64,000 bases of DNA from Hormiphora californensis. Lineage: Eukaryota > Animalia > Ctenophora. The stretch spans positions 5,084,001 through 5,148,000 of the forward strand of contig CM035354.1 in NCBI GenBank assembly GCA_020137815.1, given 5' to 3'. The notes below the pieces were generated by a model. The model was not told the origin of the DNA. It worked only from the letters and a program-made list of their open reading frames with translations, and searched no databases. Shown here piece after piece: positions 9,580-51,498 of this stretch. Both the position numbers and the translations under genes were made by a program. Position 1 is the stretch's first letter. Each line of letters opens with the position of its first letter.

Positions 9580-9597
9580 ATTTTTAATCGGTTATGA

Positions 9598-10632: not shown

Positions 10633-10854
10633 TAAACTAAAATAATTAAAATGCACTATTCTTCCGACTTTTATAAAGAAACACGATTTGAATACAGGCC
10701 ACTGGCGCGGCCATTCCCCTGTGGCTATCACTGACAATGAACCGATCACAAGCCGTGTATGATTGCAAGGGGCTCATTTGGAGTCACAATTGTATGCGTA
10801 CAGACTCGAAGATTCGAATCAACTAATAATTCCCGCTTCATATCCTTGATATAG

Positions 10855-18231
<7,377 letters not shown>

Positions 18232-18745: not shown

Positions 18746-18889
18746 CTTTAGTGAAAACCGCATGTCTCTAGCACATGTCTCTAACACATGCGAGACCCAC
18801 CATAAATGGGCCCATTTATGGTGCATCTCGCATGTGTTAGCGAGCTCGATTTTCAAAAACATGCTAGAGACATGCGGTTTTCACTAAAG
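18746..18889. mobile_element. ~145-bp palindromic MITE abutting the satellite
   Basis: CTTTAGTGAAAACCGCATGTCTCTAGCA...TGCTAGAGACATGCGGTTTTCACTAAAG, centred on ATAAATGGGCCCATTTAT. Confidence 0.75.
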
Positions 18890-21800
18890 AGACTATCCCA
18901 CTTTGACCCTCCTAATCTCTAAAAAACTTTCCCACTTTGATCCACATAATCTCTAAGAAACATTCCCACTTTGACCCGCCTAATCTCTAAGAAACTATCC
19001 CACTTTGATCCTCCTTATCTCTAAGAAACTTTCCCAATTTGACCCACCTTATCTCTAAGAAACTTTTCCAACTTGACCCTCCTTATCTCTAAGAAACTTT
19101 CCCAATTTGACCCACCTTATCTCTAAGAAACTTTTCCAACTTGACCCACCTTATCTCTAGAAACTTTCCCAATTTGACCTACCTTATCTCTAAGAAACTT
19201 TCCCAATTTGACCCACCTTATCTCTAAGAAACTTTCCCAATTTGACCCACCTTATCTCTAAGAAACTTTCCCAATTTGACCTACCTTATCTCTAAGAAAC
19301 TTTCCCAATTTGACCTACCTTATCTCTAAGAAACTTTGCCAATTTGACCCACCTTATCTCTAAGAAACTTTGCCAATTTGACCCACCTTATCTCTAAGAA
19401 ACTTTTCCAATTTGACCCACCTTATCTCTAAGAAACTTTCCCAATTTGACCCACCTTATCTCTAAGAAACTTTTCCAATTTGACCCACCTTATCTCTAAG
19501 AAACTTTTCCAATTTGACCCACCTTATCTCTAAGAAACTTTCCCAATTTGACCTACCTTATCTCTAAGAAACTTTCCCAATTTGACCCACCTTATCTCTA
19601 AGAAACTTTCCCAATTTGACCCACCTTATCTCTAAGAAACTTTTCCAATTTGACCCACCTTATCTCTAAGAAACTTTTCCAATTTGACCCACCTTATCTC
19701 TAAGAAACTTTTCCAATTTGACCCACCTTATCTCTAAGAAACTTTCCAATTTGACCCACCTTATCTCTAAGAAACTTTTCCAATTTGACCCACCTTATCT
19801 CTAAGAAACTTTCCCAATTTGACCCACCTTATCTCTAAGAAACTTTCCCAATTTGACCCACCTTATCTCTAAGAAACTTTCCCACTTTGACCCACCTTAT
19901 CTCTAAGAAACTTTCCAATTTGACCCACCTTATCTCTAAGAAACTTTCCCAATTTGACCCACCTTATCTCTAAGAAACTTTCCAATTTGACCCACCTTAT
20001 CTCTAAGAAACTTTCCCAATTTGACCCACCTTATCTCTAAGAAACTTTCCCAATTTGACCCACCTTATCTCTAAGAAACTTTCCCAATTTGACCCACCTT
20101 ATCTCTAAGAAACTTTCCCAATTTGACCCACCTTATCTCTAAGAAACTTTCCCAATTTGACCCACCTTATCTCTAAGAAACTTTCCAATTTGACCCACCT
20201 TATCTCTAAGAAACTTTCCCAATTTGACCCACCTTATCTCTAAGAAACTTTCCCAATTTGACCCACCTTATCTCTAAGAAACTTTCCAATTTGACCCACC
20301 TTATCTCTAAGAAACTTTCCAATTTGACCCACCTTATCTCTAAGAAACTTTCCAATTTGACCCACCTTATCTCTAAGAAACTTTCCAATTTGACCCACCT
20401 TATCTCTAAGAAACTTTCCCAATTTGACCCACCTTATCTCTAAGAAACTTTCCAATTTGACCCACCTTATCTCTAAGAAACTTTCCAATTTGACCCACCT
20501 TATCTCTAAGAAACTTTCCCAATTTGACCCACCTTATCTCTAAGAAACTTTCCCAATTTGACCCACCTTATCTCTAAGAAACTTTTCCAATTTGACCTAC
20601 CTTATCTCTAAGAAACTTTCCAATTTGACCTACCTTATCTCTAAGAAACTTTCCCAATTTGACCCACCTTATCTCTAAGAAACTTTCCCAATTTGACCCA
20701 CCTTATCTCTAAGAAACTTTCCCAATTTGACCCACCTTATCTCTAAGAAACTTTCCCAATTTGACCCACCTTATCTCTAAGAAACTTTCCCAATTTGACC
20801 CACCTTATCTCTAAGAAACTTTCCCAATTTGACCCACCTTATCTCTAAGAAACTTTCCCAATTTGACCCACCTTATCTCTAAGAAACTTTCCCAATTTGA
20901 CCCACCTTATCTCTAAGAAACTTTCCCAATTTGACCCACCTTATCTCTAAGAAACTTTCCCAATTTGACCCACCTTATCTCTAAGAAACTTTCCCAATTT
21001 GACCCACCTTATCTCTAAGAAACTTTCCCAATTTGACCCACCTTATCTCTAAGAAACTTTCCCAATTTGACCCACCTTATCTCTAAGAAACTTTCCCAAT
21101 TTGACCCACCTTATCTCTAAGAAACTTTCCCAATTTGACCCACCTTATCTCTAAGAAACTTTCCCAATTTGACCCACCTTATCTCTAAGAAACTTTCCAA
21201 TTTGACCCACCTTATCTCTAAGAAACTTTCCCAATTTGACCCACCTTATCTCTAAGAAACTTTCCAATTTGACCCACCTTATCTCTAAGAAACTTTCCCA
21301 ATTTGACCCACCTTATCTCTAAGAAACTTTCCCAATTTGACCCACCTTATCTCTAAGAAACTTTCCCAATTTGACCCACCTTATCTCTAAGAAACTTTCC
21401 CAATTTGACCCACCTTATCTCTAAGAAACTTTCCAATTTGACCCACCTTATCTCTAAGAAACTTTCCAATTTGACCCACCTTATCTCTAAGAAACTTTCC
21501 CAATTTGACCCACCTTATCTCTAAGAAACTTTCCAATTTGACCCACCTTATCTCTAAGAAACTTTCCCAATTTGACCCACCTTATCTCTAAGAAACTTTC
21601 CCAATTTGACCCACCTTATCTCTAAGAAACTTTTCCAACTTGACCCACCTTATCTCTAAGAAACTTTCCCAATTTGACCTACCTTATCTCTAAGAAACTT
21701 TCCCAATTTGACCCACCTTATCTCTAAGAAACTTTTCCAATTTGACCCACCTTATCTCTAAGAAACTTTCCAATTTGACCCACCTTATCTCTAAGAAACT

Positions 21801-24505
21801 TTCCCAATTTGACCCACCTTATCTCTAAGAAACTTTTCCAATTTGACCCACCTTATCTCTAAGAAACTTTCCCAATTTGACCCACCTTATCTCTAAGAAA
21901 CTTTCCCAATTTGACCCACCTTATCTCTAAGAAACTTTCCAATTTGACCCACCTTATCTCTAAGAAACTTTCCCAATTTGACCCACCTTATCTCTAAGAA
22001 ACTTTCCCACTTTGATCCACCTAATCTCTAAGAAACATTCCCACTTTGACCCACCTTATCTCTAAGAAACTTTTCCAACTTGACCCACCTTATCTCTAAG
22101 AAACTTTCCCAATTTGACCTACCTTATCTCTAAGAAACTTTCCCAATTTGACCCACCTTATCTCTAAGAAACTTTTCCAATTTGACCCACCTTATCTCTA
22201 AGAAACTTTTCCAATTTGACCCACCTTATCTCTAAGAAACTTTTCAATTTGACCCACCTTATCTCTAAGAAACTTTCCCAATTTGACCTACCTTTTCTCT
22301 AAGAAACTTTCCCAATTTGACCCACCTTATCTCTAAGAAACTTTCCCAATTTGACCCACCTTATCTCTAAGAAACTTTCCCAATTTGACCCACCTTATCT
22401 CTAAGAAACTTTTCCAATTTGACCCACCTTATCTCTAAGAAACTTTCCCAATTTGACCCACCTTATCTCTAAGAAACTTTCCCAATTTGACCCACCTTAT
22501 CTCTAAGAAACTTTCCCAATTTGACCTACCTTATCTCTAAGAAACTTTGCCAATTTGACCCACCTTATCTCTAAGAAACTTTTCCAATTTGACCCACCTT
22601 ATCTCTAAGAAACTTTTCCAATTTGACCCACCTTATCTCTAAGAAACTTTCCCAATTTGACCTACCTTATCTCTAAGAAACTTTCCCAATTTGCCCCCCT
22701 TATCTCTAAGAAACTTTTCCAATTTGACCCACCTTATCTCTAAGAAACTTTCCCAATTTGACCCACCTTATCTCTAAGAAACTTTCCCAATTTGACCCAC
22801 CTTATCTTTAAGAAACTTTTTCAATTTGACCTACCTTATCTCTAAGAAACTTTCCCAATTTGACCTACCTTATCTCTAAGAAACTTTCCCAATTTGACCC
22901 ACCTTTTCTCTTAGAAAATTTCCCATTTTTACCCACCTTTTCTCTAAGAAACTTTCCCAATTTGACCCACCTTATCTCTAAGAAACTTTCCCAATTTGAC
23001 CCACCTTATCTCTAAGAAACTTTCCCATTTTGACCCACCTTATCTCTAAGAAACTTTCCCAATTTGACCCACCTTTTCTCTAAGAAACTTTCCCAATTTG
23101 ACCCACCTTATCTCTAAGAAACTTTCCCAATTTGACCCACCTTATCTCTAAGAAACTTTCCCAATTTGACCCACCTTATCTCTAAGAAACTTTCCCAATT
23201 TGAACTACCTTATCTCTAAGAAACTTTCCCAATTTGACCCACCTTATCTCTAAGAAACTTTGCCAATTTGACCCACCTTATCTCTAAGAAACTTTCCCAA
23301 TTTAACCTACCTTATCTCTAAGAACTTTTCCCAATTTGACCCACCTTATCTCTTAGAAACTTTCCCAATTTGACCCACCTTATCTCTAAGAAACTTTCCC
23401 AATTTGACCCACCTTATCTCTAAGAAACTTTCCCAATTTGACCCACCTTATCTCTAAGAAACTTTCCCAATTTGACCCACCTTATCTTTAAGAAACTTTT
23501 TCAATTTGACCTACCTTATCTCTAAGAAACTTTCCCAATTTGACCTACCTTATCTCTAAGAAACTTTCCCAATTTGACCCACCTTATCTCTTAGAAAATT
23601 TCCCATTTTTACCCACCTTTTCTCTAAGAAACTTTCCCAATTTGACCCACCTTATCTCTAAGAAACTTTCCCAATTTGACCCACCTTATCTCTAAGAAAC
23701 TTTCCCATTTTGACCCACCTTATCTCTAAGAAACTTTCCCAATTTGACCCACCTTTTCTCTAAGATACTTTCCCAATTTGACCCACCTTATCTCTAAGAA
23801 ACTTTCCCAATTTGACCCACCTTATCTCTAAGAAACTTTCCCAATTTGACCCACCTTATCTCTAAGAAACTTTCCCAATTTGAACTACCTTATCTCTAAG
23901 AAACTTTCCCAATTTGACCCACCTTATCTCTAAGAAACTTTTCCAATTTGACCCACCTTATCTCTAAGAAACTTTCCCAATTTGACCCACCTTATCTCTA
24001 AGAAACTTTTCCAATTTGACCCACCTTATCTCTAAGAAACTTTTCCAATTTGACCCACCTTATCTCTAAGAAACTTTCCCAATTTGACCTACCTTATCTC
24101 TAAGAAACTTTCCCAATTTGCCCCCCTTATCTCTAAGAAACTTTTCCAATTTGACCCACCTTATCTCTAAGAAACTTTTCCAATTTGACCCACCTTATCT
24201 CTAAGAAACTTTTCCAATTTGACCCACCTTATCTCTAAGAAACTTTTCCAATTTGACCCACCTTATCTCTAAGAAACTTTCCCAATTTGACCCACCTTAT
24301 CTCTAAGAAACTTTTTCAATTTGACCCACCTCATCTCTAAGAAACTTTCCCAATTTGACCCACCTTATCTCTAAGAAACTTTCCCAATTTGACCCACCTT
24401 ATCTCTAAGAAACTTTCCCACTTTGATCCACCTAATCTCTAAGAAACATTCCCAATTTGACCCACCTTATCTCTAAGAAACTTTCCCAATTTGACCCAAC
24501 CTTTT
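18890..24505. repeat. Tandem satellite, 34-bp unit (33-bp variants), ~165 copies
   Basis: Unit CTCTAAGAAACTTTCCCAATTTGACCCACCTTAT repeats continuously, with more divergent units at the edges. There are no unique spacers, so it is not CRISPR. Confidence 0.98.
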
Positions 24506-25175: not shown

Positions 25176-31108
<5,933 letters not shown>

Positions 31109-31338
31109 AAACACGCATACACCTAACTGTAACACATGGTGTAATAATGGAAACGGGTTGTTAGAGGTGGCGAGGGGGTCGGGTTGGCTACGAAATAACC
31201 TTCACGCGCTGACAAGGGAGGGGTAACTTCGTAACCAAGCGAGGGTCGGGTCACAATAAAACAAATCCCTAACGCTCAATAAGTTTACTAAAATGTGATA
31301 TTAATTTTACACAAACACACACACAAACACAGCTTTCA

Positions 31339-34300
31339 TTAAGTCTTTATTTCTGCAGATTTCAACTTGCTGACCAGGCTGTTAATTTTATCGTCACTGA
31401 AATAAGCAAGAAGTTGGTTAGAGTTATGAAAGTAATCAATGTATGGATAATGTTAGTTAGTAAGTTACGAGATGAGTCAAGATGAGTAGAGAGTCAATGT
31501 ATAGAACTGGTGATCAGTACGAGCTATTATGAAAACAAAACTGCCGTGATTCTCAGCCGGAAGAAGGCAATTTCTCAGAAACTTACTTCTCTTGAAGAAT
31601 AGCTTTCACTTTGGTCTGTTGATCCCCACTTAACGAGGGGAATTTACCAGCCGTAGCCTTCTGAAACTTTAATTTAGATCTCAATTGATCGGCATCAATT
31701 TTCAGACACTTCACTCTCTGAGAGAGCTCTGTCATCTCGCCCCTCAGAGAGTTCTCCGCATCTGACAGGTCCGGTAACAGGTTCTGGACGTCCCTCGTTA
31801 CACGTGATACCCTGGGAATATATACTTCTATTAGCTTGAAATACGAAGATATTTTGGTCCGTTTTACCGAGGTTCACGGTACGGCCGAAATATCATTTGA
31901 GATTTTACGGGGGGGATCCCATGGTATACTTTGGTATACTTTGGTATACTTTGGTATATGGAAAATCCCAAAAAAATATGTGGAAAGTACCAAAGTATAC
32001 CAAAGTATACCATATCTTTTTAATAACTTTAAAGTACTTTAAAGTGTTAATTTACAACAGTTAAGGCTTTAAAACATTTTATATAAACTTTCTTGACTCA
32101 TAAAATTGGACAATGGTGCTAAATAGGCTAAATTCATAGAATCGAGGGAAAATATTACCTATAAAATGGTGAGTCAGAAAACTGGGGTTTGACAAATTGG
32201 GACCCATTTGAGTATGATAAAAAAACTTTTAAAAAGTCAAGAAAATGTTCAAATAGTATTTGGTAGTCTCCAAAAATTTTTCAAAAATTGCCTTCACCGG
32301 GAATCGAACCCGAGTGGCAAGCCTAGAAGCACTAGCCGGATGATGTAACAAAAACGTAAAAATCGGTTTAATAAGCGTTATATTACCAACTTATAAAGAA
32401 ATAAGGATGTATTTTTACAAATTTAGTCATTTATGTTAACTTATCGCTTAAATTTTACCTTTTTCAAAATTTTTATGGTATACTTTGGTATACCTTGGTA
32501 TACTTTGGTATACTTTGGTATACTTTGGTATATGGAAAATCGCTGAAAAAGTTGTGGAAAGTGCCAAAGTATACCAAAGTATACCATGGGATCCCCCCCG
32601 ATTTTACCTATCTTGCAGATTTTGTTGTCGTTTTGATACATTAGATGATCGTTGCGATAGGGTGGTGCTTGCTGTTTTTAGTGTCGATATACTTTGCTCC
32701 AACTCCGCTAACTCTGCACGGTGTTGTGAGTGTTGGTCCTGGAATGAGAATCTTGTTAACAATAGAGAGAGGAAAATGTAGGAGAAAGTACTGAAGTGGA
32801 CCATGAAAGAGCCGTGTTTTGTTCAAACATGGTCGAGCAAGACAAAACGAGCCCTATTATTTATATGCTCTTTAAATTCACCTGTAGTAGTGTCATGTGA
32901 TGTAGTATTTCAGTTCGTGCCTTGCTCTGTCTCCCCACATACTCTTCCCTAAATACCGCAGTGCACTTTAGTAGCAGATCAAGGAGGGCTTTCTCAGACA
33001 TCCCACCAGCGTTACCACTCCTGGTAGGGGAGGGAGTGATGAAGGTGACATCATATATCAGTTATAATGACTTGGAGCTATAATTCATTTTTGTCATCAA
33101 TCATATCCCCCTTCACAGATTTGCAACAGCATAAACCAGTCATCCCCCACCTTACCTCAGTACGGGATTACTAGTGGTCCTATCCAGTAAAGTCTGTATC
33201 CTCTGACTGAATGGTTTGGTATACAACTGCTTCATAGGACTGGCAGGAGGCTCCTTCCCGCCCTCGCCAGCTGTAGTTAAGAGTGGTATAGTTTCCCTGG
33301 TAACACTCCTCAATGGTAACTGGATGAACTCAGCGTTGCTAATCAGAACTAGCAGGCTGCTCCCTAGGATTGAGTCTTGGAGGAGGGTAGCACCGAACAG
33401 ACATGTCGGGTCACTGACACCTACTGGTTGTACACAGAGGAGGTGTTCTACCGTGCTCTCACACTCTAGGTTTAGTTCACTTGTCTCATCTGAGGGGGAG
33501 GGGGTTGGAATTAGTATGTTCTGAAATAAACAGTATCATTATTGATAAGTGACTGCACAGTAGACAAGAAGTTGTGAACAAGTGAGATGATCTTACCTTT
33601 AGCGAATGTTTGCAGTCTATGTATGGAGGGTAGAACCACACTATACACGCCAGTAGCAGTCTTAACAAAATACCGATCAAATGAGCTGTGATCAGGTAGG
33701 AGCACTAACACACCCTCCTCCTCATCCCCTCCCTCACTGCTCCCTGCCTCCCTCTCTGGTAGGTCCAGGGAGAACATCTCCAGGAGATAGAGACATTCCT
33801 CATCTTCCTCGTCAGAAGAAAGGAGGGCCAGGTGGTGAACTGTGCCGGAGAGGGAGGCACAAGCTAGGACAGGGGGACTGCATCCTAGCACCAGAATCGA
33901 GGAAAAGTCTAGTTCGTAACAGTCGTTGTTGGGAGGCAGCACTCGAAGGGGTCCCTCTAACTTGACTGATTCACTGTGTGGTGAGAAAAAGGTCAGAGAT
34001 CATTCGAGGGGATAGGGCAAAATAAAATATTTTGAGGAATGATAACTTACTCTGTTGCTGAGAGAGGCATTCGTAATATGTGTACATCTGAATTCTCCTC
34101 CAAGGCAAAGATGGGGAAACCCTGCTCCTCGGGACCAAATGAAAACGAAGTCATGGCTCCTGGAAGTGGTGACCTACAACTATGGCTCATGCAACTATGG
34201 CTCATAAAATCTATGAGCCATAGATGCATGCAACTATGGCTCATAGATTTTATGAGCCATAGATGCATACAACTATGGCTCATAGAAATGTGATCTGATT

Positions 34301-37300
34301 AGGTTCTATGAGCCAAAGCTAGTGAGAGTGAGAGGGACGTTAGTGACACGTGAGTGACACGTGAGTGACACGTGAGTGACACGTGAGTGACATGTGAGTG
34401 ACACGTGAGTTTTCGAATCATATGTAATATTAAATGAGCACAAATGCAAACGATTAACATAATGATAAATCTAATATTACATAATTAAAATTACACTATC
34501 AGTTCATCTCGGATATAATGGTAAAAGGGGTCCTTCTTTGGACAGTTCATAGAGCATTTCACGTGAATCAGCAGCTCCTTAACACGATGTTTATGATCGG
34601 ATAGGTACTAAACAGCCACCTTGCATTATCACTATCAGGATCCACAGTAAAAAACTCTCCAACAGGTCTGATTTTCGAGAAAGTAGTATAGGTAGGATGT
34701 TCCCAGAAATTGCCTGGCTAAAGTTTCTGATCTTTCACACTCTTCCAAAACCTCCCGGTACTCGTTGAACGTTGTAGTGTTGTTCGTGACGTCGATAACA
34801 ATTATAGCTAGTGAATCCACTGACAAATTCTAATGAGTGGGATGAATATGTGACAGTGTCACATATCCACCCCCCTCACTGACACGATTCTGGGATGCGC
34901 CATTAGCAGAGTGAAACGATACGAGATACGAAATTTATGATTCGGGGGAGCTCATTAGCAGTGTGAGACGATAGGTATATGGAACATGATTCGGGGAAGC
35001 TTATTAGGAGTGTTAGACGATATGAGAAACGATTCGGAGAATGTTTTATCGCTCTTTCTATCTATCTCTATCTCTATCTCTATCTCTTTTTGTCAATTAT
35101 CTTGGACTTGAGAACCAGATGAGGTGCCTACCATTATACTATAATGCGAGCTGACGCTACACACTTGGTGAGTTTAGTGCCCTTATTTTTGGTAATAAGA
35201 GCCTATCGGCTCGCCTCATTGTTTTTAGGAGGATATGTTGTTTTAGATGGAATGCGTTCGGTTTTTTTTCGAGTCTTGCCAAACAGACCAAATTCAAACC
35301 ATTCCATCTAAAACAACAACATATCCCCCTAAAAACAACGGGGCTGAGCCGACATCCAGATAAAAAAGGAAAAGGAGTATGGACAAAAATAAGGGCACCA
35401 AAGTTTGTAGCTTCCTCGCATTAGTATGAGTAGGTATCTCATCTGGTTCCCAAGATAATTGACAAAAAGAAATAGAGATAGATAAAAAGAGCGATAAAAC
35501 ATTCTCCGAATCGTGTCTCATATCGTCTAGCACTCCTAATAAGCTTCCCCGAATCATGTTCCTGTTAAGGTGAATATACTGTGTCTGAATGAATGACCCT
35601 GCAAAACACACGTGCAACCGTACTGTGTAACCGTACCGTGTAACCGTACCGTGTAACCTAACTGTGTAACCGAACCGTACTGTAACCGTCCGTAGTATCA
35701 GGGACTCTCGCTAATAGCAGAACTGTATCTCGATCCTTGTTGGGCAAGGATCTGGACTGAATGAAAACTGGAGAAACACAAGAAATAAAAACTGTAAATA
35801 GATAAACTACAATCGGTAGTGGGTAGTAGTGTCTTGAAAGTGCGCTGGTTTAGCTCCCCCTCAATCCTTCCTCTTCCTCCTTTATACCTCCTCGTAGCTT
35901 GGTCTGCAGTCATAACATCTTCTTTGATGTCCAAACAAGTCCTCGGTGTTGTGTCTGCAACTAGCGCGTCTTGTAAACAATTATATCTTGACGTGGAGAC
36001 TGATGATGACGTGACTGCTCCAGCGCTGCATCTTAGATTGTAGATCTGACTTCGAGGTGACAAGACTCCTGCTGCGAGCATGCGTCTTCTTGACGTGGGG
36101 ATTGAGTTGCTTCTATATTCATTACTACTACTACTGGGTTGTGATCCTCTGTTGAGATCCTCTTCATAGGGTAACATGATCCTCTGTCTTGATCCTCTAG
36201 GAGAGTGCTTTGCACCCTTAACAACATGCACATGCCACACATACATGCAACACTCTCTCATATACTGCCAAATATCTTCACACTCAATATAACCCTTTCT
36301 CTGTATACTGCCAAATATCGCTTCACTCTCACACTGTATAAACCACACTACAACATTCCATATACCGTATCGTCTCACACTGCTAATGAGCTCCCCCGAA
36401 TCATAAGTTTCGTATCTCGTATCGTTTCACTCTGCTAATGGCGCATCCCAGAATCGTGTCAGTGAGGGGGGTGGATATGTGACACTGTCACATATCCATC
36501 CCACTCATTAGAATTTGTCAGTGGATTCACTAGCTATAATTGTTATCGACGTCACGAACAACACTACAACGAGTACCGGGAGGTTTTGGAAGAGTGTGAA
36601 AGATCAGAAACTTTAGCCAGGCAATTTCTGGGAACATCCTACCTATACTACTTTCTCGAAAATCAGACCTGTTGGAGAGTTTTTTACTGTGGATCCTGAT
36701 AGTGATAATGCAAGGTGGCTGTTTAGTACCTATCCGATCATAGATTTGAATAAACATCGTGTTAAGGAGCTGCTGATTCACGTGAAATGCTCTATGAACT
36801 GTCCAAAGAAGGACCCCTTTTACCATTATATCCAAGATGAACTGATAGTGTAATTTTAATTATGTAATATTAGATTTATCATTATGTAAATCGTTTACAT
36901 TTGTGCTCATTTAATATTACATGATTCGAAAACTCACGTGTCACTCACGTGTCACTCACGTGTCACTCACTCTCACTAGCTTTGGCTCATAGAACCTAAT
37001 CAGATCACATTTCTATGAGCCATAGTTGTATGCATCTATGGCTCATAAAATCTATGAGCCATAGTTGCATGCATCTATGGCTCATAGATTTTATGAGCCA
37101 TAGTTGTAGGTAATCCCTGGAAGTGTGTGGAGAGATAAGTGAGCTTTTCATGTGTTTTCTAAGAGGGAAAGGGCCGGAGTTGTATAGATTTTCCATACCC
37201 CACAGTTGTTGTAATGCTACTTGAGGGTTGTTACCTGTCTGTGCTGTTATAAGAGATGGACCAGTTGACACGTTGAGACAGTGCAGGTATGCTTGGATTG

Positions 37301-38358
37301 ATTCACTGTCAAATAGCGGATAACTAGCTATCGCGCAGTTAGGCTCCTCTGTACAATACAACCTGGAAATATAAATTGTTCAAACGGTCTCTAAAAAGCA
37401 GTTTGAATAGTAAATAACAAGGAATTTCAATAGTAATTCCAGAATCATTTTGTGACAAAGTATACCTCATAATGTTATCAGAAGTTAGAACTGCAATGTA
37501 GTTATCATCTGTAGAGCCAGGATGCCATTGGACGTCCACAGAGGACACCTTGGAGTGGGCCTCGTAAAACCGACACCCAACCTGGACACACCTGTTGATA
37601 GGGAAATACTGGGTCTCTGGAGAATAATGGGAAAGTAGAGAGCTGGACTCTGGACAGGTCTTCACTTCATCAGACTGATTCTGATCAGTTTTATTCAGAT
37701 TTGGAGCTGGGATAGCGCGAAAGGGCAATGCGCGCATGTTACTGCGCCAAGATATTGGTCCTTGTGTTGTAAGAAAGGAGCGGCGCGTGCCGTCAATCGA
37801 TAACACAAACAGCCTCTTCCCAAAATTGCAGCAGCCCCAGATCAGGAAATCAGGAAATCAGGAAATCTTGGACTGAGTTCCGATCATAGGAATTTTTTAG
37901 GAAATCATACCTGCACAAAGTAGGGCCCTTGGGTCGGCGTCGTTTTGGGACCTCTACAACAGCCACTCCCCGTTCCGACCAAAAAAGCAGTTTAGTACCA
38001 TTTGGTCCCATTGCAATGTGAGAGGGGGTGAAACCGGGTACTTGGGAGAGGACCAACTCCTGGGGGAAAACATGTTGTTTATATCAGCACAACTTACCCC
38101 ACCCCACAACACAGAATAAATAGCTCCCTCTATTAAATACAAATACATAGTACCCCTCTGTACCTGTATTACATATACACATACCTGTATAGAGGCTATC
38201 TTGCCTCCACTCAGATCCCTATAGTGGTAAGTGTAGATGTGACATGTATCAGGGTTACACACATAAACGTGACTATCATGTTGTGTAACCAGCTCACACC
38301 GGGTACTGCAGAATTCAACATCCTCCAGTTGAGAAAAGGGTACCGGCACTCGAGACAT
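31339..38358 (-). CDS. NUP88: Nucleoporin Nup88, multi-exon
   Basis: Propeller motifs LLFWSERGVAVVEVPKR, VQWHPGS..IAVLTSDNIMRLY, RGTPSSAASQQ/MLPPNNDCYELDFSSILVL..PPVLACASLSGTVHH and RYFVKTATGVYSVVLP. Then VEHLLCTQP, LLLKCTAVFREEYVGRQSKARTEI and a C-terminal coiled coil ending at TAA 31341-31339. Confidence 0.85.
31909..32599. mobile_element. MITE with 8-bp TSD and (TTGGTATACT)n subterminal repeats in a NUP88 intron
   Basis: TIRs GGGGGGGATCCCATGGTATACTTTGG...CCAAAGTATACCATGGGATCCCCCCC. TSD GATTTTAC at 31901-31908 and 32600-32607. Confidence 0.88.
34168..37116. mobile_element. ~2.95-kb fold-back DNA transposon (GG termini, 8-10-bp TSD; Merlin/MULE-like) in a NUP88 intron
   Basis: Arms of ~1.1 kb are inverted around ~35280. 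Subterminal palindromic CTATGGCTCATA repeats and (GTGACACGTGA)n. TSD CTGGAAGT at 34160-34167 and 37117-37124. Confidence 0.9.
35563..36355. mobile_element. Solo LTR (Gypsy-like) inserted in the right arm of the fold-back element
   Basis: TGTT...AACA termini with a 4-bp TSD TTCC (35559-35562, 36356-36359). The opposite arm shows the empty site. Confidence 0.82.
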
Positions 38359-38582
38359 TGCCTAATATTATAAGGTGTAGATTTGTTGTTATTGGGTAGA
38401 TATGGGCTACTTTTTATACGGTAAATATACACAAAAACGATTTTCTGTGGGCCATTTCGCTCTGTCTTTCATGTCGGTACCAGATATATAATTTAAAACA
38501 AGATAAAACATGTCTATATCAACAGTTTGTGTATTTGGAGCTTGTTCTTCCCTCTATTCCTCTCTCATCAGAAAGGCCATGA

Positions 38583-38975
38583 TCATGCTATATAACCCTT
38601 GAACTGAGTGAAACACTCCAAGATCTTTGGCTCGACCTCAGGGGTAAACAGGAGCGTCTGTAGTGTCACCATGTACCTATAGGGTATGGGGATTTGATAA
38701 ACAGAGGGGGTGTGACACAAACAGGGGGTTGGAGAAAAGGATGTGATACAAGAAGCTAGAGTTCTGGATAAGATTGAAAGAGTTATCACCGAGAAATGGG
38801 ACTTACCGTTTCACTTCCCGCCTATGTTTCACAAGGGTCTGTCTGAGTCTATCCCTGGTACACCTAAACCATAGAGTCTGGGTGTATCTTGATTCTTGTT
38901 CACTTCTCACTATATGGTCCGTTAGGATCATGATGAATCGCTGAGGGGGTAGTGTTAACAAGGGAGGGAAGAGAT

Positions 38976-39050
<75 letters not shown>

Positions 39051-42000
39051 GGAGAGAGAGAGAGAGAGACAGAGAGACAGAGATAGAGAGAGAGAGAGCA
39101 CCCTACTACCAGCACCTACCTGTACGACAATAAGGAAGACTTCTTTCTGGCTCAGTTCAGCATCCTCTAACAGTTTCACATAGTGACCCACCTCCTCCTC
39201 CGCAGCTTGGGTCAGAGCTTTCCTTTTCTCAGCGATATCTGGATCTGCAGCTACTGCCTCCTGGTCCTGAAGAGGGAGAATAACATGAGCAGTCAGTACT
39301 ACATGTACACATGTATACAATGAACATTGAAATTTGAACACTGTTGATATTCAAACTGTTGTTCTTCAGAGAGTCGCCGATTCCAGCTCCAAAATTCCAT
39401 ACCTTTTTCTCCTTCAACTTTGCTTTGCTCTTTTCCAGTTCAAGTTTTATCCTATCACACCTCTTGATGCAGTAGCAAATTGTGCTCTCCAGCATCTGCC
39501 ACAGATACAACCTATAGAGTAGGGGGGTTTAATGATTCGGCAGTTGTAATAAAAATACAAAATAATTTAGAATTGTGTCCATGTAAAAAACACTATTATC
39601 AAAAACGGATTAACTAACAACTAACACACTGTTACCTATTAAAATGAGGTAGCATATCAGGGCTGAATATCCAACTAACAATACAGCTGGGCTCTATCAA
39701 CTGGAAATTCAGATACTTTTCTATCATGATACACATTAGTTGGTGGTTGGTTTCGAAGAAGTTGAATGTCACCCGGAGACAACACACTTTGGCGTCCTGG
39801 TTGGGCATCACCTGGAGCAGCAGGTCTCGGAATCTGGATAATATAATGGGGTGTCATGATGTGTATCTCGGAACATGGATAGTAGGGTCAGGGAGTGGGT
39901 GTGGGGACGGTAAGGAAGTGGGAGGGATACGAGAGTGAGTAAGACAAGGGTAAATGACGTACCTATTCAATGCCACACTAAGATGGCTAATACTCTTGCA
40001 TCCCACTCTTAGAATGGTCTGTATCACAACCTCTAGCTTTGCTTCGGGAAACTGGGAATCCAAATCACGACCTAGGAGAGAGATCAAATATATCAGCACA
40101 TTTGCATTATGCATACAGCTCTGCAAATTAGGGCAGATATTTTTCGGAGAAATACAAGTTACATCTCCTAATAAGATGATATTTACCGTCGATTGAGCCA
40201 TCAGGTAGGGGCTCTAAACTAGCCATCATCATTTCAACGTCATCTTTGTTCTTGATACTCTCTATCAGAGCTTTCCCACATTTTGTCTGTAGATTCAACA
40301 AGCTATTCTCTGGAGCAGGTTCCGCGAATTTGTGGTTGAATCCCGGTTTACTGGGCAGCAGGGAGGAAAACTCATCCGGGATTACATCCGTTAACTTTTC
40401 ATAAAATGTCAACCTGAAAGTATTTTTTGTCATTGAACTATACAGGGCTCTTATCGTAAGCACTCACTAAGCTTAGTTTGTAGAAATTAGAAAATATATG
40501 GATCTACGATCGTCAGTTAGTTGTGAGATCACGATTTAATTAATTAATTAGCTACTTTTCCACTTCTTACCATAGCAGCTTTAGGAAGACCTCTTTGAGG
40601 AACTTTGGTTTGGGATGGTTGGGATCACTCTTGTTTAGTTTTATACACTCCTCCCACTCACTCCATGTCCAATGGTATCTGCAATAAAAATGTGGGGTAG
40701 ATTTAAATTGCATTCAACAGTAACTAAATAACAACTATTTGTTATATTGTATTTCCTACTTGAAGTTACTGAGGAAGTAGGCGAACCAAGATCCAAAGCG
40801 GTCCACTAGGACAGTGTTCATAGTGTCCAACCTCTCGTAAACATATGCCACTGCCTGGGCTAGCACCTGAATGGGAGGGGCGGAGATTAGAGTTGGCTGA
40901 GAGCACGTTTGAGTAAAGCTGTTAGTGAGAAGGATGGTTAAACAGTCAATACTGGTTGTTTTTTTACAGGAAGGCTAAACAATTGAGAGCACTCTGAACG
41001 TGTCATTTGATAGAAAACGAGTTTATTATACGAACCTGGGGGAGATGGTCTGCCATTAGTTGACACAGCTGAATCAGTATACTCCCGTAGAAGAGTTCTG
41101 GGTACCGGGGCATGGGGAGTTCCAACAGGCCTCCAAACAACACCTGATTAGAAGGAGTTAAATATGGCCAGAAACACAAAGGACACCATGTCAGCAAGTT
41201 CTTCAGAATTCATGCTTCTTTTTAGAAATCTTTGGGACGATTGGTGAACCCATGATAGACCGCGAAAAAAGACCTCTACAAATAGAGAGAAATAAGATGA
41301 AACAAACCTCGACCAGCATGTAATTGAGAGGCATGGAACTGCGACCCATAATCCGCAGTAAAGCCTCAGCACATTCCTTCTTAGTGAGGTTCCTACTGTC
41401 AATCACATTGATAATGGCATCCTCTACCAGGTACCTGTCAATACTGTTGAACCTCGGCAACTTGGGCACCTCAGGGCGGTTCGGTACATCCTGGGAGCGG
41501 GGCGGTGGGGGTTAGGGGAGGTACATCTTAAGGGGGGGGGGGGGTTAGGAGAGCGAATGGTAACTGTTGGATCTATTGAACGATAATTTGGCCGAGACAA
41601 AAATAATATTGATCACTTGTTAAAAGGTATCAATCCCAGCTAGTACTGACCTGAGTGTCGAATATTCTGAAGACAACATATGGAAGGGGGAACTGTGTAT
41701 GCTCAAGATCAGGGGGTAGTTCAAATTGTGGCAGGGGATGTTGGAGAGAACTCTCCAGCTTACTCTCAAAAGCAAGATAAGGTCGAACAATCCAGTTATC
41801 CTGAAATAATTAGTGTTGTTAGATTCAGGTGTTAACATGGTAACAGCGTAGTGTTGTTAAATTCAGGTGTTACCATGGCAACAACGTAGTGTTGTTAGAT
41901 TCAGGTGTTACCATGGTAACAGCGTAGTGTTGTTAGATTCAGGTGTTACCATGGTAACAGCGTAGTGTTGTTAGATTCAGGTGTTACCATGGTAACAACG

Positions 42001-44843
42001 CCCCCTGGCAACAGAGATACTAACCGTCCAGTTATTGTTGCGCATGTTTTTTATTTGCAGCCAAAGTGAGTCCATGTACTCAATTTGAGGCAGTGGATTA
42101 TCACTTGACCACACCCGGATAGATGCCATGTAATCCTTTTCTCTCTGCTCGATCTTCCTGAAGGTAATAAATCAAGTCAAATCCTAGCTAGAATATTAAA
42201 TTAAATAGACTCATGGTTGACTAAAGTAGTAAGAACCTAAAGTGTTATTCCTTACATTTCGAGCATGTCCAGAAGTCTATCGAACTCTGGATCGTCTTTA
42301 CTGTCATGGAAATGAAGGCCAATCCAGGGGAGGCATTGGAGCACAGAGTACAGTAGGAAATCTCTCATACTCTGGAGTAGGACGTTAATTTATCATTATT
42401 AGTTTCATTTCCAGTTTCCAATATCGAATTGATCGCTTACTATCCCTAATCCCTGTCCTTACATGGCAATTGAAGGAGTCACTTTTTTAAGGAGCACTAT
42501 TTACCGGTTTGACGCCAGGCACGGAGGCAGTGCTGATGAATGTAGTAAAGAGGGTGAGTAGGGAGGAGCCCATCACAACGTTACAGTTCACCATATCAGA
42601 CAGGAATCTGAGAAGTAGCTGCACATTCCTCCATTCTGCATCATCAATTAGAGAGCTCAACTTCTCCAGGACCAACATGAGGAACTGGGGGGGGGGGGGT
42701 ATTGCAGTACACGGGGTTATGGAAGTGGGGGTAGTAACTACGGAGTAAGGATGTCGGCTAATCCATCATCGACTAAATTCAAGGGAATAATATCAACACA
42801 TTTTAGAAACCAAATTGATTCATATCAATGGAGTACAATCAATGTACATCTGCATTGCATCTTTAGTTGGCCGTGTGACCAAAGTCACTATCATTACGGA
42901 GCAGTGAGCGTTTGCTTACCTCTCCGCCAGTGGAAAACATCTTCACATTGAGGAGTCCGACTAGAGTTGAGTATATTGTGATCTTATCTGGCTGTTCAAT
43001 AGCACTGAAACATAATGTGAATTGATGTCAGATCACATATATTTGTTATGATCTAATCCTCCTTTACACGGGCGGAGCACACGGAAAGAGGGTCGAGCAA
43101 GGCAAACATTGATTGCAAAACGGGAGGTACATACTTACTTTGAAATGAGAGAGTTTAGAATGAAGTCTTTCTTAGTCGCTATCTCCTGATCCAAAATGTC
43201 CACCAAACGCTCAATGTTGGTCTCCAGTGATTCCTGGCTCTTCTCTCCGATTCTCTTGATGAGCTCCTCAAGCCTTGTGTTGAGATCTGTAGAGAGAAAC
43301 TGAAGTTATTACGGTAGCGGTACCTTCTTTTTCGTACTTTTTAATGTATCAAATTAGTATAGAGATTACCAAAAGTGAAGGAGCTGAACCACCGGAGTAA
43401 CTGGCTCTCTAAAACGTTTCGCGCCCTACATACATGAAAGTTCAGTACCTAGCAGCTCAGCATTGTCACGTGATTAATACTAGCCCTAATCATTGGCTGA
43501 GCGATGATTGTGCGCCCCTCTTGATTGGGTGTTGTATTACCACGTGTACATCCCCGTGATCTGTTTTTAACCAATAACTGACCTTCCACATTCGCACCTA
43601 CACCCATCGTTCAGGCCCGCTAGCCGGTCTGATTCTAGAGAAGTAACAGAGAAAATTTAAAATGTATAGATCAAGAATAATAAGGAATGTTATTGAAATA
43701 AATTTAAAAATAATTATGCCTAAAACTAACAGAAATTAGTTGGCTGGAAAGGTGACCACTTTTTTTTGTACAACTGACACCTTTGCACCCTCCGGTTTTT
43801 TCATCATTATCTTTCCCTCTCTGATCCGGCTGTAGTTTTTGAGATAGAAATAGATGGAGTGAGATGCAGACAAAGTGAGTTGGAGACAGAGTGAGATGAA
43901 GACAGTGAGATGGAGACATAGTGAGATGGAGACAGAGTGAGATGGAGACATAGTGAGTTGGAGACAGAGTGAAATGAAGACAGAAAAAGAGATGGAGACA
44001 GAGTGAGTTGGATACAGAGTGAGATGAAGACAGAGTGAGATGGAGACAGAGTGAGTTGGAGACAGAGTGAGATGGAGACAGAAAATGAGATGGAGAAAGA
44101 GTGAGTTGGATACAGAGTGAGATGAAGACAGAGAATGAGATGGAGGCAAAGTGAGATGAAGACAGAGTGAGATGGAGACAGAGTGAGATGAAGATAGAAA
44201 ATAAGATGGAGACAGGGTGAAATTGAGACAGAGTGAGATGGAGACAGAATGAGATGGAGAGAGAGTGAGATGAAGACAGAGTGAGTTGGAGACAGAGTGA
44301 AATAGAGACAGAGTGACATAGATACAGAATGGGATTGAAACAGAGAGAGATGAGAAAAAGATAGACAGATTCCTTGATTTGAGATCAGTACGATCGCCCC
44401 AGTTCTACTAGTTTATTTAAATAATTTTCCTTATTATTCCTGAAATTTTAAAATTGAAATATTTTGAATCGTCTCTGTAGCTTTTTCTTTAGAATCAGTC
44501 CGGCTAGAGGGCCAGAACGTGTGTAAGAAGTGTAAGTGTGTAGGTCCCCCTATTGGTTAAAAACAGATCACGGGGATGTACACGTGGTAATACAACACCC
44601 AATCAAGAGGGGTGTACGGTCACCGGTCAACCAATGATTAGGGCTAGTTTTGGTCACGTGACAATGCTGAGCTGCTAGTTGTGAACTTTCATGTATGTAG
44701 GGCGCGAAAAAGTGTCTTGCTAGTTGTCACGGTGGTTCAGCTCCTCCGTTTTTGGTAATCTCTATAATAAATATTGATTTTCACTCACCATCATCCTCTT
44801 CAAATTTTCGTTTCCGATTGATCCTAACTTGTTCAACTTCCAT
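38583..44843 (-). CDS. NCBP1: Nuclear cap-binding protein subunit 1 (CBP80), multi-exon
   Basis: N-terminal NRKRKFEEDD, LIKRIGEKSQESLETNIERL, PDKITIYSTLVGLLN, LLLRFLSDMVNC, DRYLVED, PLNYMLVEVLFGGLLELP..ELFYGSILIQLC, DRFGSWFAYFLSNFKY.WTW, PKPKFLKEV, GCKSISH and WLRNQP. Ends PKILECFTQFKGYIA*. Confidence 0.95.
38977..39097. repeat. (GA)n microsatellite
   Basis: Directly visible. Confidence 0.9.
41811..42000. repeat. 38-bp minisatellite x5 in an NCBP1 intron
   Basis: Unit GTGTTGTTAGATTCAGGTGTTACCATGGTAACAGCGTA, containing the palindrome GTTACCATGGTAAC. Confidence 0.92.
43358..44766. mobile_element. Fold-back element with ~350-bp diverged TIRs and a central 16-bp degenerate tandem array, filling NCBP1 intron 1
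   Basis: TATAGAGATTACCAAAA...TTTTGGTAATCTCTATA; inverted blocks 43358-43700 and 44420-44766; (GAGACAGAGTGAGATG)n at ~43855-44350. Confidence 0.85.
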
Positions 44844-45877: not shown

Positions 45878-48205
45878 CTACCACACCCTCAGTGTGTTCT
45901 CAGAAACATCAGAGATAACCTCACCCCACACTTCAAACAAGATTCCGTAGGTGTGGGATAACTTTGCTTTCTTTAATCGCATCTCCCTCCCTCTGTCGCG
46001 TCCTTCAAATATCGCCTTTTCTTTCTCCAACTCTTTTATCTTAGCTTGTTCCTGGGAATGGAATTCAGTTAACAACGATAACAACAAGATTGTTGTAATT
46101 AGCTAATAGACCGGTGATTTATCAGTCTAATAGCAGAGTGGTGAACCTACCAGTTCGATTTTCGTTTCAATCACTTCAGGTTTCTCTCCTTCTCGAAGTT
46201 GTTTTGTCAGATCTTCAATTGTTTTATCGATATTCTCGATATCACAGCTCATTTTATCAGAATGAGCGATCAACTCTTGTTTTTTGTACTGCCAAGCCGA
46301 CTCTCTGCGGAAAACAACAGTTTTCACTTTTTAGTGTGGATATTGTGATATATGTTGTTGTGTTCTAACACTCCTTTACATATTATGTAAGACATTTGTG
46401 AGTCAGAGCCGAACAAGGCAAGTGATATATCATTATGTACAATAGAATGAGAAATGATCCTGTTAATTTTGTCTGACCTTTTCTTTGATTCTTTCTCTGC
46501 CAACATCAAAGATTCCGTAGCAAACTTTTTATCGTCTTCAAGCTGTTCAGTCGAGTTCTTCAGAGCAAACAACTCCTTATCAATCTCAGCAAGTTCCTAA
46601 AAATGGGGTCATCAGATACCAAACCAAAGTAACAAAACAAGAAATGGACACATCATGATCTGCTCAGAACTCACCATATTGCTGTCTTGAAGAAAGTCTG
46701 ATATTCGGGAAAGAAGTGCATTTGCCTGGAGGATATTCTTGTTGGTTATCTGGTTATCAATGTCATACTTGGTGTCAGGGAATAATCGCTGTGCCTGGGT
46801 CAAGATCTGCCTTCCTCGACTCTGAAAAGGATGGAAGTTAGCGTTGAAGTAGGAACACGCCTCATAACGCGACGATACCCTTTCCCTTGGTCACTATTGT
46901 ATAACTAACGATATTATCAGTGGTAAGTTACTTGGTAAGTTACTACAGTGCACATTTATTTTTCGAAGGTTTCACTATACCTTGAGTTGTGCTTGTTTTC
47001 GTGTAAGTAAAATCTCCAATTCACCATCCTCCTTCTGTAGCTCTATCAACTCTTCCTCTATGACTGATTTCTACAGAATAATATTTAGATTTAGCTTCAT
47101 AACACCCCACGGACTAGAACAACAAAACAAGTAATTTAGTAGCATGTACCTTATCAGTTAGTGATTTGTAGAGTTGTTTAACCTTCTGAACTTCAGTCTG
47201 GGGTGGCTGTGCCATTATCACTTTCTCTAAAGACGCTATCTCCGACTCCTGGCGACGAGCTTCTGTTTCCAAGGTTACCTTCTCTTCCTCCTTGGTCGCT
47301 AGAAACTCTCTCAAAGATGCCACTTTCTCCTGTTGTGCTGTCAACATCTTCCCAGTGACATCTTTGTCTTCTTTGTGCTGTGCGATTTGGGCAGTTGTTT
47401 CCTCAATTTGACTGCTTATCGCGGCCTCTGTTTCCGGGAACTTGGCATTTTCCTCTCGTTTCACTACTAACTTGTTTTCCAATCTGTTCACTTCCGATTT
47501 CAGACTAGCAATGACCTTATCTGTGTTCATTTCCCGCAGGTACTTTTGTTTCAACTCCTCGAAATCTACATCTCCACCCATCTCCTGAGATTCCTTGTAA
47601 TACTTGGCCACCACTGCCCGGTGTTTCAATTCCTGGTCCGCTTGTTCCTCCGTCATGGTTAGTGTCCACATTTGGCTCATGTGTGAATACTCGTACTTGA
47701 TGTTACTGATAAACCCACACAACCAGGCCAACATCTCAAGGAGGTGTGGCCAACTGTGGGGACTACCGACTGGTTTGAAGTGGGTTGCTTTTAACACATA
47801 AGGGTAACCTAGATCAGTTACAAAATCAATGATATCCTTTTGAATGTTCAGGCAGTCCAGATTTGGCTCCACCTCTTGCATGATAAATCGGTAGATTGCT
47901 TTGAAAGTTGCCTCCGTTGGACTCAGAATATTCTTCTTCGTTATCACGGTAGGGTAGTCATTAGTGAGAAGAAAATCAAGGACGATTTTCACGTTTTTGT
48001 TCTGGTTTAACTTCACGTCAACTTTGGCGGCACCAGGAGCAATAGAGGGTCGTGAAAATCCGACGCTTGATTGGCGTGAAACTGAGGGACGGGAAGTCGA
48101 TGGTCGAGCCATTGATTGGCGAGATGTTGAAGGTCGTGCCATGGATTGTCTGCTGGTCGGAAGAACAGACTTCCTCGAGACACTCGGCCTCGGTAACTTA
48201 CTCAT
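45878..48205 (-). CDS. NDC80: Kinetochore protein NDC80/HEC1. Exons ~48205-47149, 47071-46982, 46822-46674, 46596-46478, 46305-46150, 46051-45878
   Basis: Basic Ser/Arg N-tail with RQS/RPS repeats; CH domain ILSPTEATFKAIYRFI..LGYPY..KPVGSPHSWPHLLEMLAWL; long coiled coil. Confidence 0.92.
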
Positions 48206-50156: not shown

Positions 50157-50157
50157 A

Positions 50158-51237: not shown

Positions 51238-51357
51238 TGTAAAAACGGCGACGGAATTCAGAAATTTTTTAAAAGTGGAGTTTTATTTTGGGATTTTAGT
51301 CAAGGTGGCGCGCACGAATTATTCATATTTCGCGCGTCACCAGACTGCATCGCTTAT

Positions 51358-51498
51358 GCTGAAACAGCGCGTCCGCGAGTTGGTGACATTGACAGTTAGT
51401 GCGTGCGAGATCGAGCTCGCACAGGCGGCCGCCTGTGCGAGCTCGATCTCGCACGCACTAACTGTCAATGTCACCAACTCGCGGACGCTGTTTTCAGC
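51358..51498. mobile_element. Near-perfect GC-rich hairpin MITE flanked by AT
   Basis: Loopless palindrome centred on GCGGCCGC (~51428), AT|GCTGAAA...TTTCAGC|AT. Confidence 0.75.

What the first reader, a model, noticed from the sequence alone, without database searches (positions are those of the whole stretch)
34150..37240. A 3-kb fold-back transposon inserted at the NUP88 3' splice site and duplicated the acceptor AG
Seen: the TSD CTGGAAGT reads ACTTCCAG on the sense strand, which is the last 8 nt of the intron. The ancestral ~119-nt intron (donor 37235, tract CTTATCTCTCCACAC-ACTTCCAG at 37117) now leads straight into the transposon. Using that AG gives G-GG ATT ACC TAC AAC TAT GGC TCA TAA, an immediate stop. 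Full-length NUP88 requires the second AG at 34160, 3 kb away, which has a poor tract of its own. Inference: the ~1.1-kb arms fold out and bring the old branch point and tract next to the distal AG, so an essential gene would be rescued by RNA structure. The alternative is a deleterious allele.
Basis: partly seen in the sequence, partly recalled or inferred. Interest (0 to 1): 0.78.

Follow-up and report, generated by a model that had tools for sequence, protein, structure and literature searches.

The report
Hairpin transposon duplicates NUP88 splice acceptor
A 2.9-kb hairpin-shaped jumping element sits on a splice signal of the nuclear-pore gene NUP88 in what is likely a comb jelly and has copied that signal to both its sides; other sequenced copies of the gene lack it, so it is likely a rare, mostly broken allele covered by a normal copy rather than a gene saved by RNA folding, although partial rescue is untested.

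Summary
The insertion is real. A 2,948-bp non-autonomous fold-back element (34168-37115) interrupts NUP88, an 11-exon, 649-aa gene, at the intron-4 acceptor. Corrections: the target duplication is most likely 9 bp (ACTTCCAGG, including exon base +1), not 8, which is Mutator/Foldback-like. One arm carries a 793-bp solo-LTR-like insert. The distal AG is not poor: it ranks 2nd of 215 AGs in the intron. All three DNA runs (two samples) that cover the site show only the empty allele, so nothing needs rescuing at population level. The long stem is predicted to form, but the proximal AG stays outside it, still first after its branch point, and is made 3 kb before the stem can close. Fold-out alone therefore does not explain skipping it. 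Best reading: a rare, leaky loss-of-function allele hidden by a normal copy (0.5). The most interesting rival is published SOS-type excision triggered by paired inverted repeats: exact removal after proximal splicing leaves 9 nt in frame (+3 aa). No RNA covers the junction. The scan noted similar insertions in other genomes, not this locus. Verdict: new member of a known kind, and a good natural test allele.

The parts
38185..38358 (-). NUP88 exon 1 (from ATG)
   Evidence: gene model; an RNA contig of X20 joins exon 1 to exon 2 (table 8)
37911..38059 (-). NUP88 exon 2
   Evidence: Pfam Nup88 E 6e-4
37466..37591 (-). NUP88 exon 3
   Evidence: Pfam Nup88 E 5e-7
37235..37362 (-). NUP88 exon 4, ends in phase 1; donor GT at 37234-37233
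   Evidence: donor scores 7.6 bits, typical
37117..37234 (-). ancestral intron 4, 118 nt, ending in the proximal AG
   Evidence: identical in empty-allele contigs of X2, X3, X5 (0 other letters over 37116-37250)
37139..37143 (-). likely branch-point motif CTCAC, A at -24 from the proximal AG
   Evidence: a second empty haplotype in X5 has CTAAC at about the same place (table 5c); function inferred
37116..37124 (-). target-site duplication, first copy ACTTCCAGG (proximal AG plus exon base +1)
34168..37115 (.). non-autonomous fold-back DNA transposon, 2,948 bp, asymmetric tips GATTACC / GGTGACC
   Evidence: arms at summed contig depth of about 5,000-13,000 against 11-37 in most flank bins of X1 (not a copy number); no Pfam match at cut-off in its ORFs of 70 aa or more
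36356..37106 (-). 5' arm, outer part; begins with 39-nt self-complementary repeats that form a local hairpin from +11 after the proximal AG
   Evidence: -71 kcal/mol for 36980-37116, z -11.9
37091..37093 (-). in-frame TAA reached if the proximal AG is used (200-aa product)
   Evidence: no GT before 37008, so no GT donor can remove it
35563..36355 (.). nested 793-bp insert, TG...CA ends, 4-bp direct repeat GGAA: solo-LTR-like (inferred)
   Evidence: X5 contigs skip it (35558->36356) and it has its own lower depth
34981..35562 (.). inner parts of both arms and the centre of the palindrome
34192..34984 (-). 3' arm, outer part
34159..34167 (-). target-site duplication, second copy ACTTCCAGG (distal AG ending 34160 plus exon base +1)
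34051..34159 (-). NUP88 exon 5; its first residues align with the conserved strand after the LG(E/D) motif
   Evidence: alignment with 34 homologues of 570 aa or more
33597..33973 (-). NUP88 exon 6
   Evidence: Pfam Nup88 E 4e-17
33156..33489 (-). NUP88 exon 7
   Evidence: Pfam Nup88 E 1e-11
32882..33020 (-). NUP88 exon 8
32608..32738 (-). NUP88 exon 9
31909..32599 (.). second, unrelated inverted-repeat element (691 bp) whose 8-bp duplication GTAAAATC copies the intron-9 donor GT; the real donor stays at the exon edge
   Evidence: empty in X1 and X5 (31900->32600); decoy donor 1.8 bits versus 7.4
31587..31811 (-). NUP88 exon 10
   Evidence: Pfam Nup88 E 0.0015
31337..31396 (-). NUP88 exon 11 with stop

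Best explanation
A hairpin-shaped, non-autonomous DNA transposon sits one base inside NUP88 exon 5 between two copies of the splice acceptor and is absent from the other copies of the gene seen, and the allele is likely a rare, leaky loss-of-function mutation carried next to a normal copy. Shown: the element, its duplication, the empty alleles, the stop after the proximal AG. Inferred: a Mutator-type transposase from elsewhere in the genome made a 9-bp staggered cut across the acceptor. On most transcripts the spliceosome would remove the old 118-nt intron at the proximal AG, which keeps its branch point and tract and is transcribed 3 kb before the distal AG. The element then becomes exonic and brings a stop after codon 200, so the RNA would be decayed, edited or retained. 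A minority of transcripts would still give protein through the distal AG or through inverted-repeat-triggered excision. The animal would be healthy because loss of NUP88 is likely recessive.
For: 3 of the 4 runs laid on the junction cover it (X2 and X3 of sample S1, X5 of sample S2) and each does so with an empty-allele contig. Over 37123-37194 the summed depth equals that contig alone, so no filled-junction contig was laid. X5 holds a second, diverged empty haplotype. The proximal AG ranks 1st of 215 AGs, 14.3 bits, above 25 of 26 native acceptors; the distal AG scores 9.8 and lacks a branch-like motif between -10 and -45, which 22 of 26 natives have. The 118-nt intron is typical (median 135.5 nt). 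The proximal AG is outside the predicted long stem. Heterozygous NUP88 carriers, including nonsense carriers, are healthy in humans (PMC6307818, passages). Landing on an AG needs no special cause: about 6% of intron-or-edge insertions would duplicate one, and the window holds a dozen or more inverted-repeat elements. One ctenophore genome has about 3.2% heterozygosity with many non-coding indels (PMC8527503, passages; background only).
Against: No RNA covers the exon 4-5 junction (X20 and X22), so the splicing outcome is not observed. The coding sequence of this haplotype shows no decay: 22 of 23 listed exonic differences from X1/X5 are synonymous; that fits either a young null or a working allele. 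If the solo-LTR-like insert arose after the element landed here, the allele is old and tolerated; its timing could not be tested. The 30 nt after the proximal AG are predicted more structured than after any of 26 native acceptors (unpaired 0.24 versus minimum 0.31), which could slow its use. The distal AG is a reasonable acceptor. In C. elegans exonic Tc1 is removed from 90-100% of mRNAs (PMC12779559). Contigs drop rare branches, so the allele's frequency and zygosity are not measured, and only two samples were seen.
Confidence: 0.5

Rival explanations
1. SOS-type rescue. The spliceosome would use the proximal AG, the element would become exonic, and its paired arms would trigger spliceosome-independent excision and re-ligation (AKAP17A, CAAP1, RTCB), or a hybrid join from the host donor to a cut near the 3' arm. 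Exact removal would leave the 9-nt duplication in frame, adding 3 residues at the end of a length-variable loop.
For: Inverted-repeat pairing is necessary and sufficient for excision in worm and human cells, independent of repeat sequence; hybrid splices occur when Tc1 lies 3 nt from a donor or 11 nt from an acceptor (PMC12779559). Exact excision gives 652 aa; a cut at the predicted stem base gives 663 aa. The loop before the junction varies in length among homologues. The stem is predicted.
Against: Not shown in ctenophores: the paper does not mention them, and I could not test whether the factors exist in this animal. SOS is imprecise: only 563 of 3,888 cut pairs within 54 nt of the ends give full-length protein, and 24 of 72 hybrid joins. 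Duplexes of about 750 bp are far longer than the 54-nt Tc1 repeats tested. No RNA data.
Confidence: 0.18
2. Ordinary use of the distal AG without long-range folding. The local hairpin starting at +11 would hinder the proximal AG, exon 5 would be defined by the distal AG and its own strong donor, and the whole 3,075 nt would be removed as one intron using a branch point near the 3' end. The allele would be close to neutral.
For: Distal AG is 2nd of 215 and above 16 of 26 natives. Local hairpin -71 kcal/mol, z -11.9, 0 of 200 shuffles as stable. 4 of 26 native acceptors also lack the branch-like motif. Introns of 796 and 1,502 nt swollen by elements occur in the two gene models. Earlier scan notes report many decoy splice-site repeats in this genome (unchecked).
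Against: The proximal site is stronger, native and made first. Sequence upstream of -32 from the distal AG is predicted to be double-stranded, leaving little room for a new branch point. Three other AGs lie within 30 nt upstream of the distal AG, all out of frame.
Confidence: 0.17
3. The two arms would pair over about 750 bp, loop out the element, and let the old branch point at 37140 serve the distal AG, so that RNA structure rescues the gene.
For: The fold is predicted: -2,036 kcal/mol for 3,312 nt, 791 pairs spanning more than 1,000 nt, stem base 37106 with 34192 at probability 0.98. [quoted passage not shown]
Against: The proximal AG is outside the stem and is still met first; the unpaired path from the branch point is about 24 nt to the proximal AG and about 66 nt to the distal one (counted). 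In yeast the skipped AGs are inside the stem. The stem cannot close until the far arm is made. The allele is not fixed.
Confidence: 0.1
4. The insertion is an assembly error or a somatic event in the sequenced animal and not an inherited allele.
For: No contig with the filled junction was laid in any of the runs tested.
Against: Both element ends match the ends of other copies and are flanked by a clean duplication, which assembly errors do not make. A second element in the same gene shows the same pattern. The tool states that contigs show presence, not absence. Whether the source animal is among the runs is unknown.
Confidence: 0.05

Closest known systems
Mutator/Foldback elements such as Tm1 of root-knot nematodes (PMC3169594, passages)
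   Same: Long composite inverted repeats with internal tandem repeats that differ in number between arms; short asymmetric motifs at the tips; mostly 9-bp duplication; non-autonomous members; empty sites; nested insertions.
   Different: Arms here are about 1.1 kb and fill the element. No sequence likeness was tested. No transposase partner was found, and the paper notes that Foldback shape also arises with P-type and Tc1-type transposases.
Tc1::dpy-19(n1347) and Tc1::Ngfp of C. elegans; SOS and hybrid SOS-spliceosome splicing (PMC12779559; parts 1-3 of 13, Discussion and Extended Data Fig. 9 passages read)
   Same: A DNA transposon lying a few bases from a host splice site; paired inverted repeats; possible partial rescue at RNA level.
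   Different: Those are laboratory alleles with measured transcripts, 54-nt repeats and no duplicated acceptor described in the passages read. Here the AG itself is duplicated, the allele is natural, and nothing is measured.
[quoted passage not shown]
   Same: A stem that would shorten the branch-point-to-AG distance.
   Different: Yeast stems are short and hide the cryptic AG inside them; here the competing AG is outside and the stem is about 750 bp.
Introners and transposon-derived introns (review PMC11282704, passages)
   Same: An acceptor AG supplied by the target-site duplication; inverted repeats at the ends.
   Different: This element supplies no donor in this orientation (first GT 108 nt in) and creates no new intron; it lengthens or breaks an old one.

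Membership tests
Mutator/Foldback-like non-autonomous element | Long composite terminal inverted repeats with internal tandem repeats | tested here: met
   arms of about 1.05-1.1 kb with 39-, 11- and about 50-nt repeats
Mutator/Foldback-like non-autonomous element | Target-site duplication of 8-10 bp, mostly 9 | tested here: met
   10-nt shared repeat; element end fixed at 37115 by other copies, other end supported by one contig; 9 bp most likely, 10 possible
Mutator/Foldback-like non-autonomous element | Multicopy and mobile (filled and empty sites) | tested here: met
   empty alleles and other flanks
Mutator/Foldback-like non-autonomous element | An autonomous partner with a Mutator-type transposase and the same ends | not testable with these tools
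   no genome held; metagenome scan gave two unrelated 19-20-nt matches
hAT element (implied by an 8-bp duplication) | 8-bp target-site duplication | tested here: not met
   other copies end at 37115, not 37116; the 8-bp rule is recalled
SOS-splicing substrate | Inverted repeats able to pair in the transcript | tested here: met
   predicted only
SOS-splicing substrate | Element lies in exonic sequence of the mRNA | tested here: inconclusive
   exonic if the proximal AG is used, intronic if the distal AG is; no RNA
SOS-splicing substrate | Imprecise non-GU-AG junctions near the repeats, dependent on AKAP17A, CAAP1, RTCB | not testable with these tools
   no RNA run covers the junction; factors not searched in ctenophores
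Introner (transposon that becomes an intron) | Donor and acceptor at the element edges allowing clean removal as a new intron | tested here: not met
   no GT until 37008; stop at 37093 precedes it
Solo LTR (nested insert) | TG...CA ends with a 4-6-bp duplication | tested here: met
   the rule itself is recalled
Solo LTR (nested insert) | Matches the two ends of a full retrotransposon elsewhere | not testable with these tools
   no genome held

The most novel reading that the evidence does not exclude
The filled allele makes working NUP88 because the element removes itself at RNA level: its tip hairpin delays the proximal AG until the arms pair, after which either the distal AG is used or an SOS-type system cuts the hairpin out, leaving the 9-nt duplication in frame. 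That would place structure-guided transposon removal in comb jellies, possibly the earliest-branching animals, and make long fold-back arms a built-in way for elements to survive in compact genes.
Probability: 0.2. Interest if true: 0.72.

Novelty: new member of a known kind. Interest (0 to 1): 0.3.

Why it matters
As it stands this is one polymorphic transposon insertion at a splice site, a known kind of mutation. Its value is as a natural test allele: three mechanisms predict different junctions that one long-read experiment would separate (proximal AG and stop; exact 37235->34159 join; ragged non-GU-AG joins, including a +9-nt product). If structure-triggered removal were found, it would extend SOS-type splicing, so far shown in worms and human cells, to ctenophores and help explain how genomes crowded with palindromic elements tolerate them in short introns.

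Tried and rejected
No whole genome is held for this window, so copies, a transposase partner and NUP88 paralogues could not be counted. RNA runs X20 and X22 do not cover the exon 4-5 junction; X20 covers parts of exons 1-2, 7 and 10 and 33 nt of the element, X22 only a 35-nt partial match; absence of cover says nothing. Run X7 has no contig beyond 37106. X1's contig stops 4 unmatched letters past 34168, which fits an empty allele but does not show it. A 19-nt arm pattern in metagenome contigs gave two loci with no further likeness: chance. Homologue searches with NUP88 exon 6 and the NDC80 exon found nothing among longer proteins; the named NUP88 relatives from the representative search were insects and a bryozoan at about 35-40% and do not place the organism. 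No Pfam match at cut-off in 11 ORFs of 70 aa or more inside or overlapping the element; no Rfam match in 31000-38500. The 8-bp duplication was rejected. Recursive splicing at the proximal AG was rejected: it is followed by GG, not GT. A rescuing mini-exon was rejected: no GT before the stop. Pairing of the proximal AG with the intron's own 5' part is predicted but is no better than shuffles (z 0.14) and is not counted as blocking. Look-ups of both elements among earlier findings by sequence returned nothing. Paper searches listed no paper on this element or on SOS splicing in ctenophores; most subscription journals are not in the library, and supplements were not read.
Full report
What is there. 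The region holds NUP88 on the minus strand. Five of twelve frames scanned hit Pfam Nup88, best E 4e-17. An 11-exon model that uses the distal AG gives an unbroken 649-aa protein, and its exon 4-5 join aligns with the conserved strand that follows the LG(E/D) motif in 34 homologues of 570 aa or more. The animal is likely a ctenophore: the best named match to a neighbouring SELENOO exon is Mnemiopsis leidyi at 86%, ahead of 79% for the next named protein (one 49-aa exon). Earlier scan notes say the same (unchecked).

The element. Between exons 4 and 5 lie the old 118-nt intron and then 2,948 bp of fold-back element. The outer arms, 36356-37106 and 34192-34984, are 98-100% complementary in blocks. 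One arm is split by a 793-bp insert with TG...CA ends and a 4-bp direct repeat, which I read as a solo LTR (inferred). With the insert left out, the arms align over about 1.05-1.1 kb with 968 matches, 30 mismatches and 155 gap columns, mostly repeat-number differences. The tips differ (GATTACC and GGTGACC). No ORF of 70 aa or more matches Pfam at cut-off. Summed contig depth on the arms is hundreds of times that of the flanks; this shows many copies but is not a copy number.

The duplication. The two junctions share 10 nt. Laying contigs on the proximal junction shows where other copies end: loose ends lie behind 37115 in 3 contigs of X3, 3 of X2 and 2 of X5, with unrelated flanks; 11 of the 26 listed pieces stop at 37115 and none at 37116 (185 pieces and 6 loose-end rows not shown). 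One X3 contig supports the other tip ending at 34168. Long composite arms, asymmetric tips and a 9-bp duplication match the description of Mutator/Foldback elements such as Tm1 (PMC3169594, passages). Superfamily membership stays open without a transposase.

The allele is not fixed. Of 22 runs listed, 7 were laid. X5 (sample S2) has a contig that skips exactly 2,957 nt, one element plus one duplication, and a second, diverged empty haplotype. In one search, 3 of 4 runs cover the site; each does so with a contig running from intron 4 into exon 5 (X2 1,019 nt, X3 2,084 nt, X5 238 nt), identical to the window over 37116-37250, and the depth over 37123-37194 equals that contig alone. No filled junction was laid. 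Contigs can drop a short branch into a high-copy repeat, and I do not know whether the source animal is among these runs, so zygosity and frequency are not measured. Clean ends and a clean duplication argue against an assembly error. Of the 40 differences shown (150 in all), I classed the 27 that are not in the element or in intron 2: 23 are exonic, and 22 of these are synonymous. The coding sequence of the filled haplotype has not decayed.

Which AG. A small model from 26 other introns of NUP88 and the upstream gene scores the proximal AG 14.3 bits (1st of 215 AGs in the long intron; above 25 of 26 natives) and the distal AG 9.8 (2nd; above 16 of 26). The proximal AG has a branch-like motif at -24. 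The distal AG has none nearer than -55, whereas 22 of 26 natives have one between -10 and -45, and its tract has 4 G against 0-2. The model is small and my gene models are by hand. Using the proximal AG gives a stop after 200 aa, and no GT lies before that stop.

The fold. The whole exon 4-5 pre-mRNA folds to -2,036 kcal/mol with 791 pairs spanning over 1,000 nt. The stem base pairs 37106 with 34192 (probability 0.98). The proximal AG lies 10 nt before the stem and the distal AG 32 nt after it. The branch point therefore still meets the proximal AG first, at about 24 nt against about 66 nt. In yeast, stems between branch point and acceptor are proposed to shorten that distance, but the cryptic AGs they silence are inside the stem (bioRxiv 10.1101/2022.07.22.501175, passages). 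The long stem also cannot close until 3 kb more is made, while short introns can be spliced soon after synthesis (recalled). That could delay the proximal AG; whether it does is untested.

A published alternative. [quoted passage not shown] Use of the proximal AG would make this element exonic. Exact removal would leave the 9-nt duplication in frame (652 aa), in a loop whose length varies among homologues. Across all cut pairs within 54 nt of the ends, only 563 of 3,888 give full-length protein, and 24 of 72 hybrid joins. The paper does not mention ctenophores, and I could not test for the factors. Earlier notes of ADAR-type edits in hairpin elements of this genome suggest that such arms do pair in RNA (unchecked).

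How it most likely works. No RNA covers the junction, so every splicing statement is inferred. The simplest account is a young or rare allele whose transcripts mostly use the proximal AG and are lost, with some leak through the distal AG or through excision. No rescue is required: human carriers of NUP88 nonsense and missense alleles are healthy (PMC6307818, passages), although the same paper reports a mild motor change in heterozygous zebrafish. Hitting an acceptor is not improbable: about 6% of intron-or-edge insertions would duplicate an AG given 143-nt introns, the window has many such elements, and a second element in the same gene duplicates a donor. I give this 0.5, SOS-type rescue 0.18, plain distal use 0.17, the fold-out model 0.10 and artefact 0.05.

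Novelty. Transposons at splice sites, acceptors supplied by target duplications (review PMC11282704, passages) and repeat-triggered removal are all described. The scan noted like cases in other genomes and judged them ordinary, and nothing at this locus. My searches listed no paper on this element or on SOS splicing in ctenophores; supplements were not read. Verdict: a new member of a known kind, interest 0.3. If RNA showed structure-guided rescue it would deserve about 0.7.

Noticed in passing
window 31901-32607: A second, 691-bp inverted-repeat element in NUP88 duplicates the intron-9 donor (8-bp duplication starting GT) and is absent in X1 and X5.
   Followed up: partly
window 43354-44770: A 1.4-kb inverted-repeat element starts 18 nt after the donor of NCBP1 intron 1; its duplication was not resolved.
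   Followed up: no
window 35563-36355: Solo-LTR-like insert inside one arm; whether it arrived before or after the element landed in NUP88 would date the allele.
   Followed up: partly
window 37984: The one non-synonymous difference among 23 listed exonic ones (residue 84, F in the window, L in X1 and X5): a private change or an assembly error.
   Followed up: partly
window 38583-44843 and 47144-48181 (minus); 29966-30112 (minus): Neighbours: an 18-exon gene read as NCBP1/CBP80 (name from recalled likeness; the one exon scanned had no Pfam match), NDC80 (Pfam E 1e-22) and SELENOO.
   Followed up: partly
window 1-1093, 4079-7019, 7626-7913, 9430-9581, 10327-10555, 18746-18889, 29150-29590, 29664-29826, 48646-50498, 51356-51500: Many further palindromic or inverted-repeat elements, some nested.
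   Followed up: no
window 18887-24503: A 5.6-kb array of about 166 copies of a 34-bp unit, 96% matches, starting at the edge of a small palindromic element.
   Followed up: no
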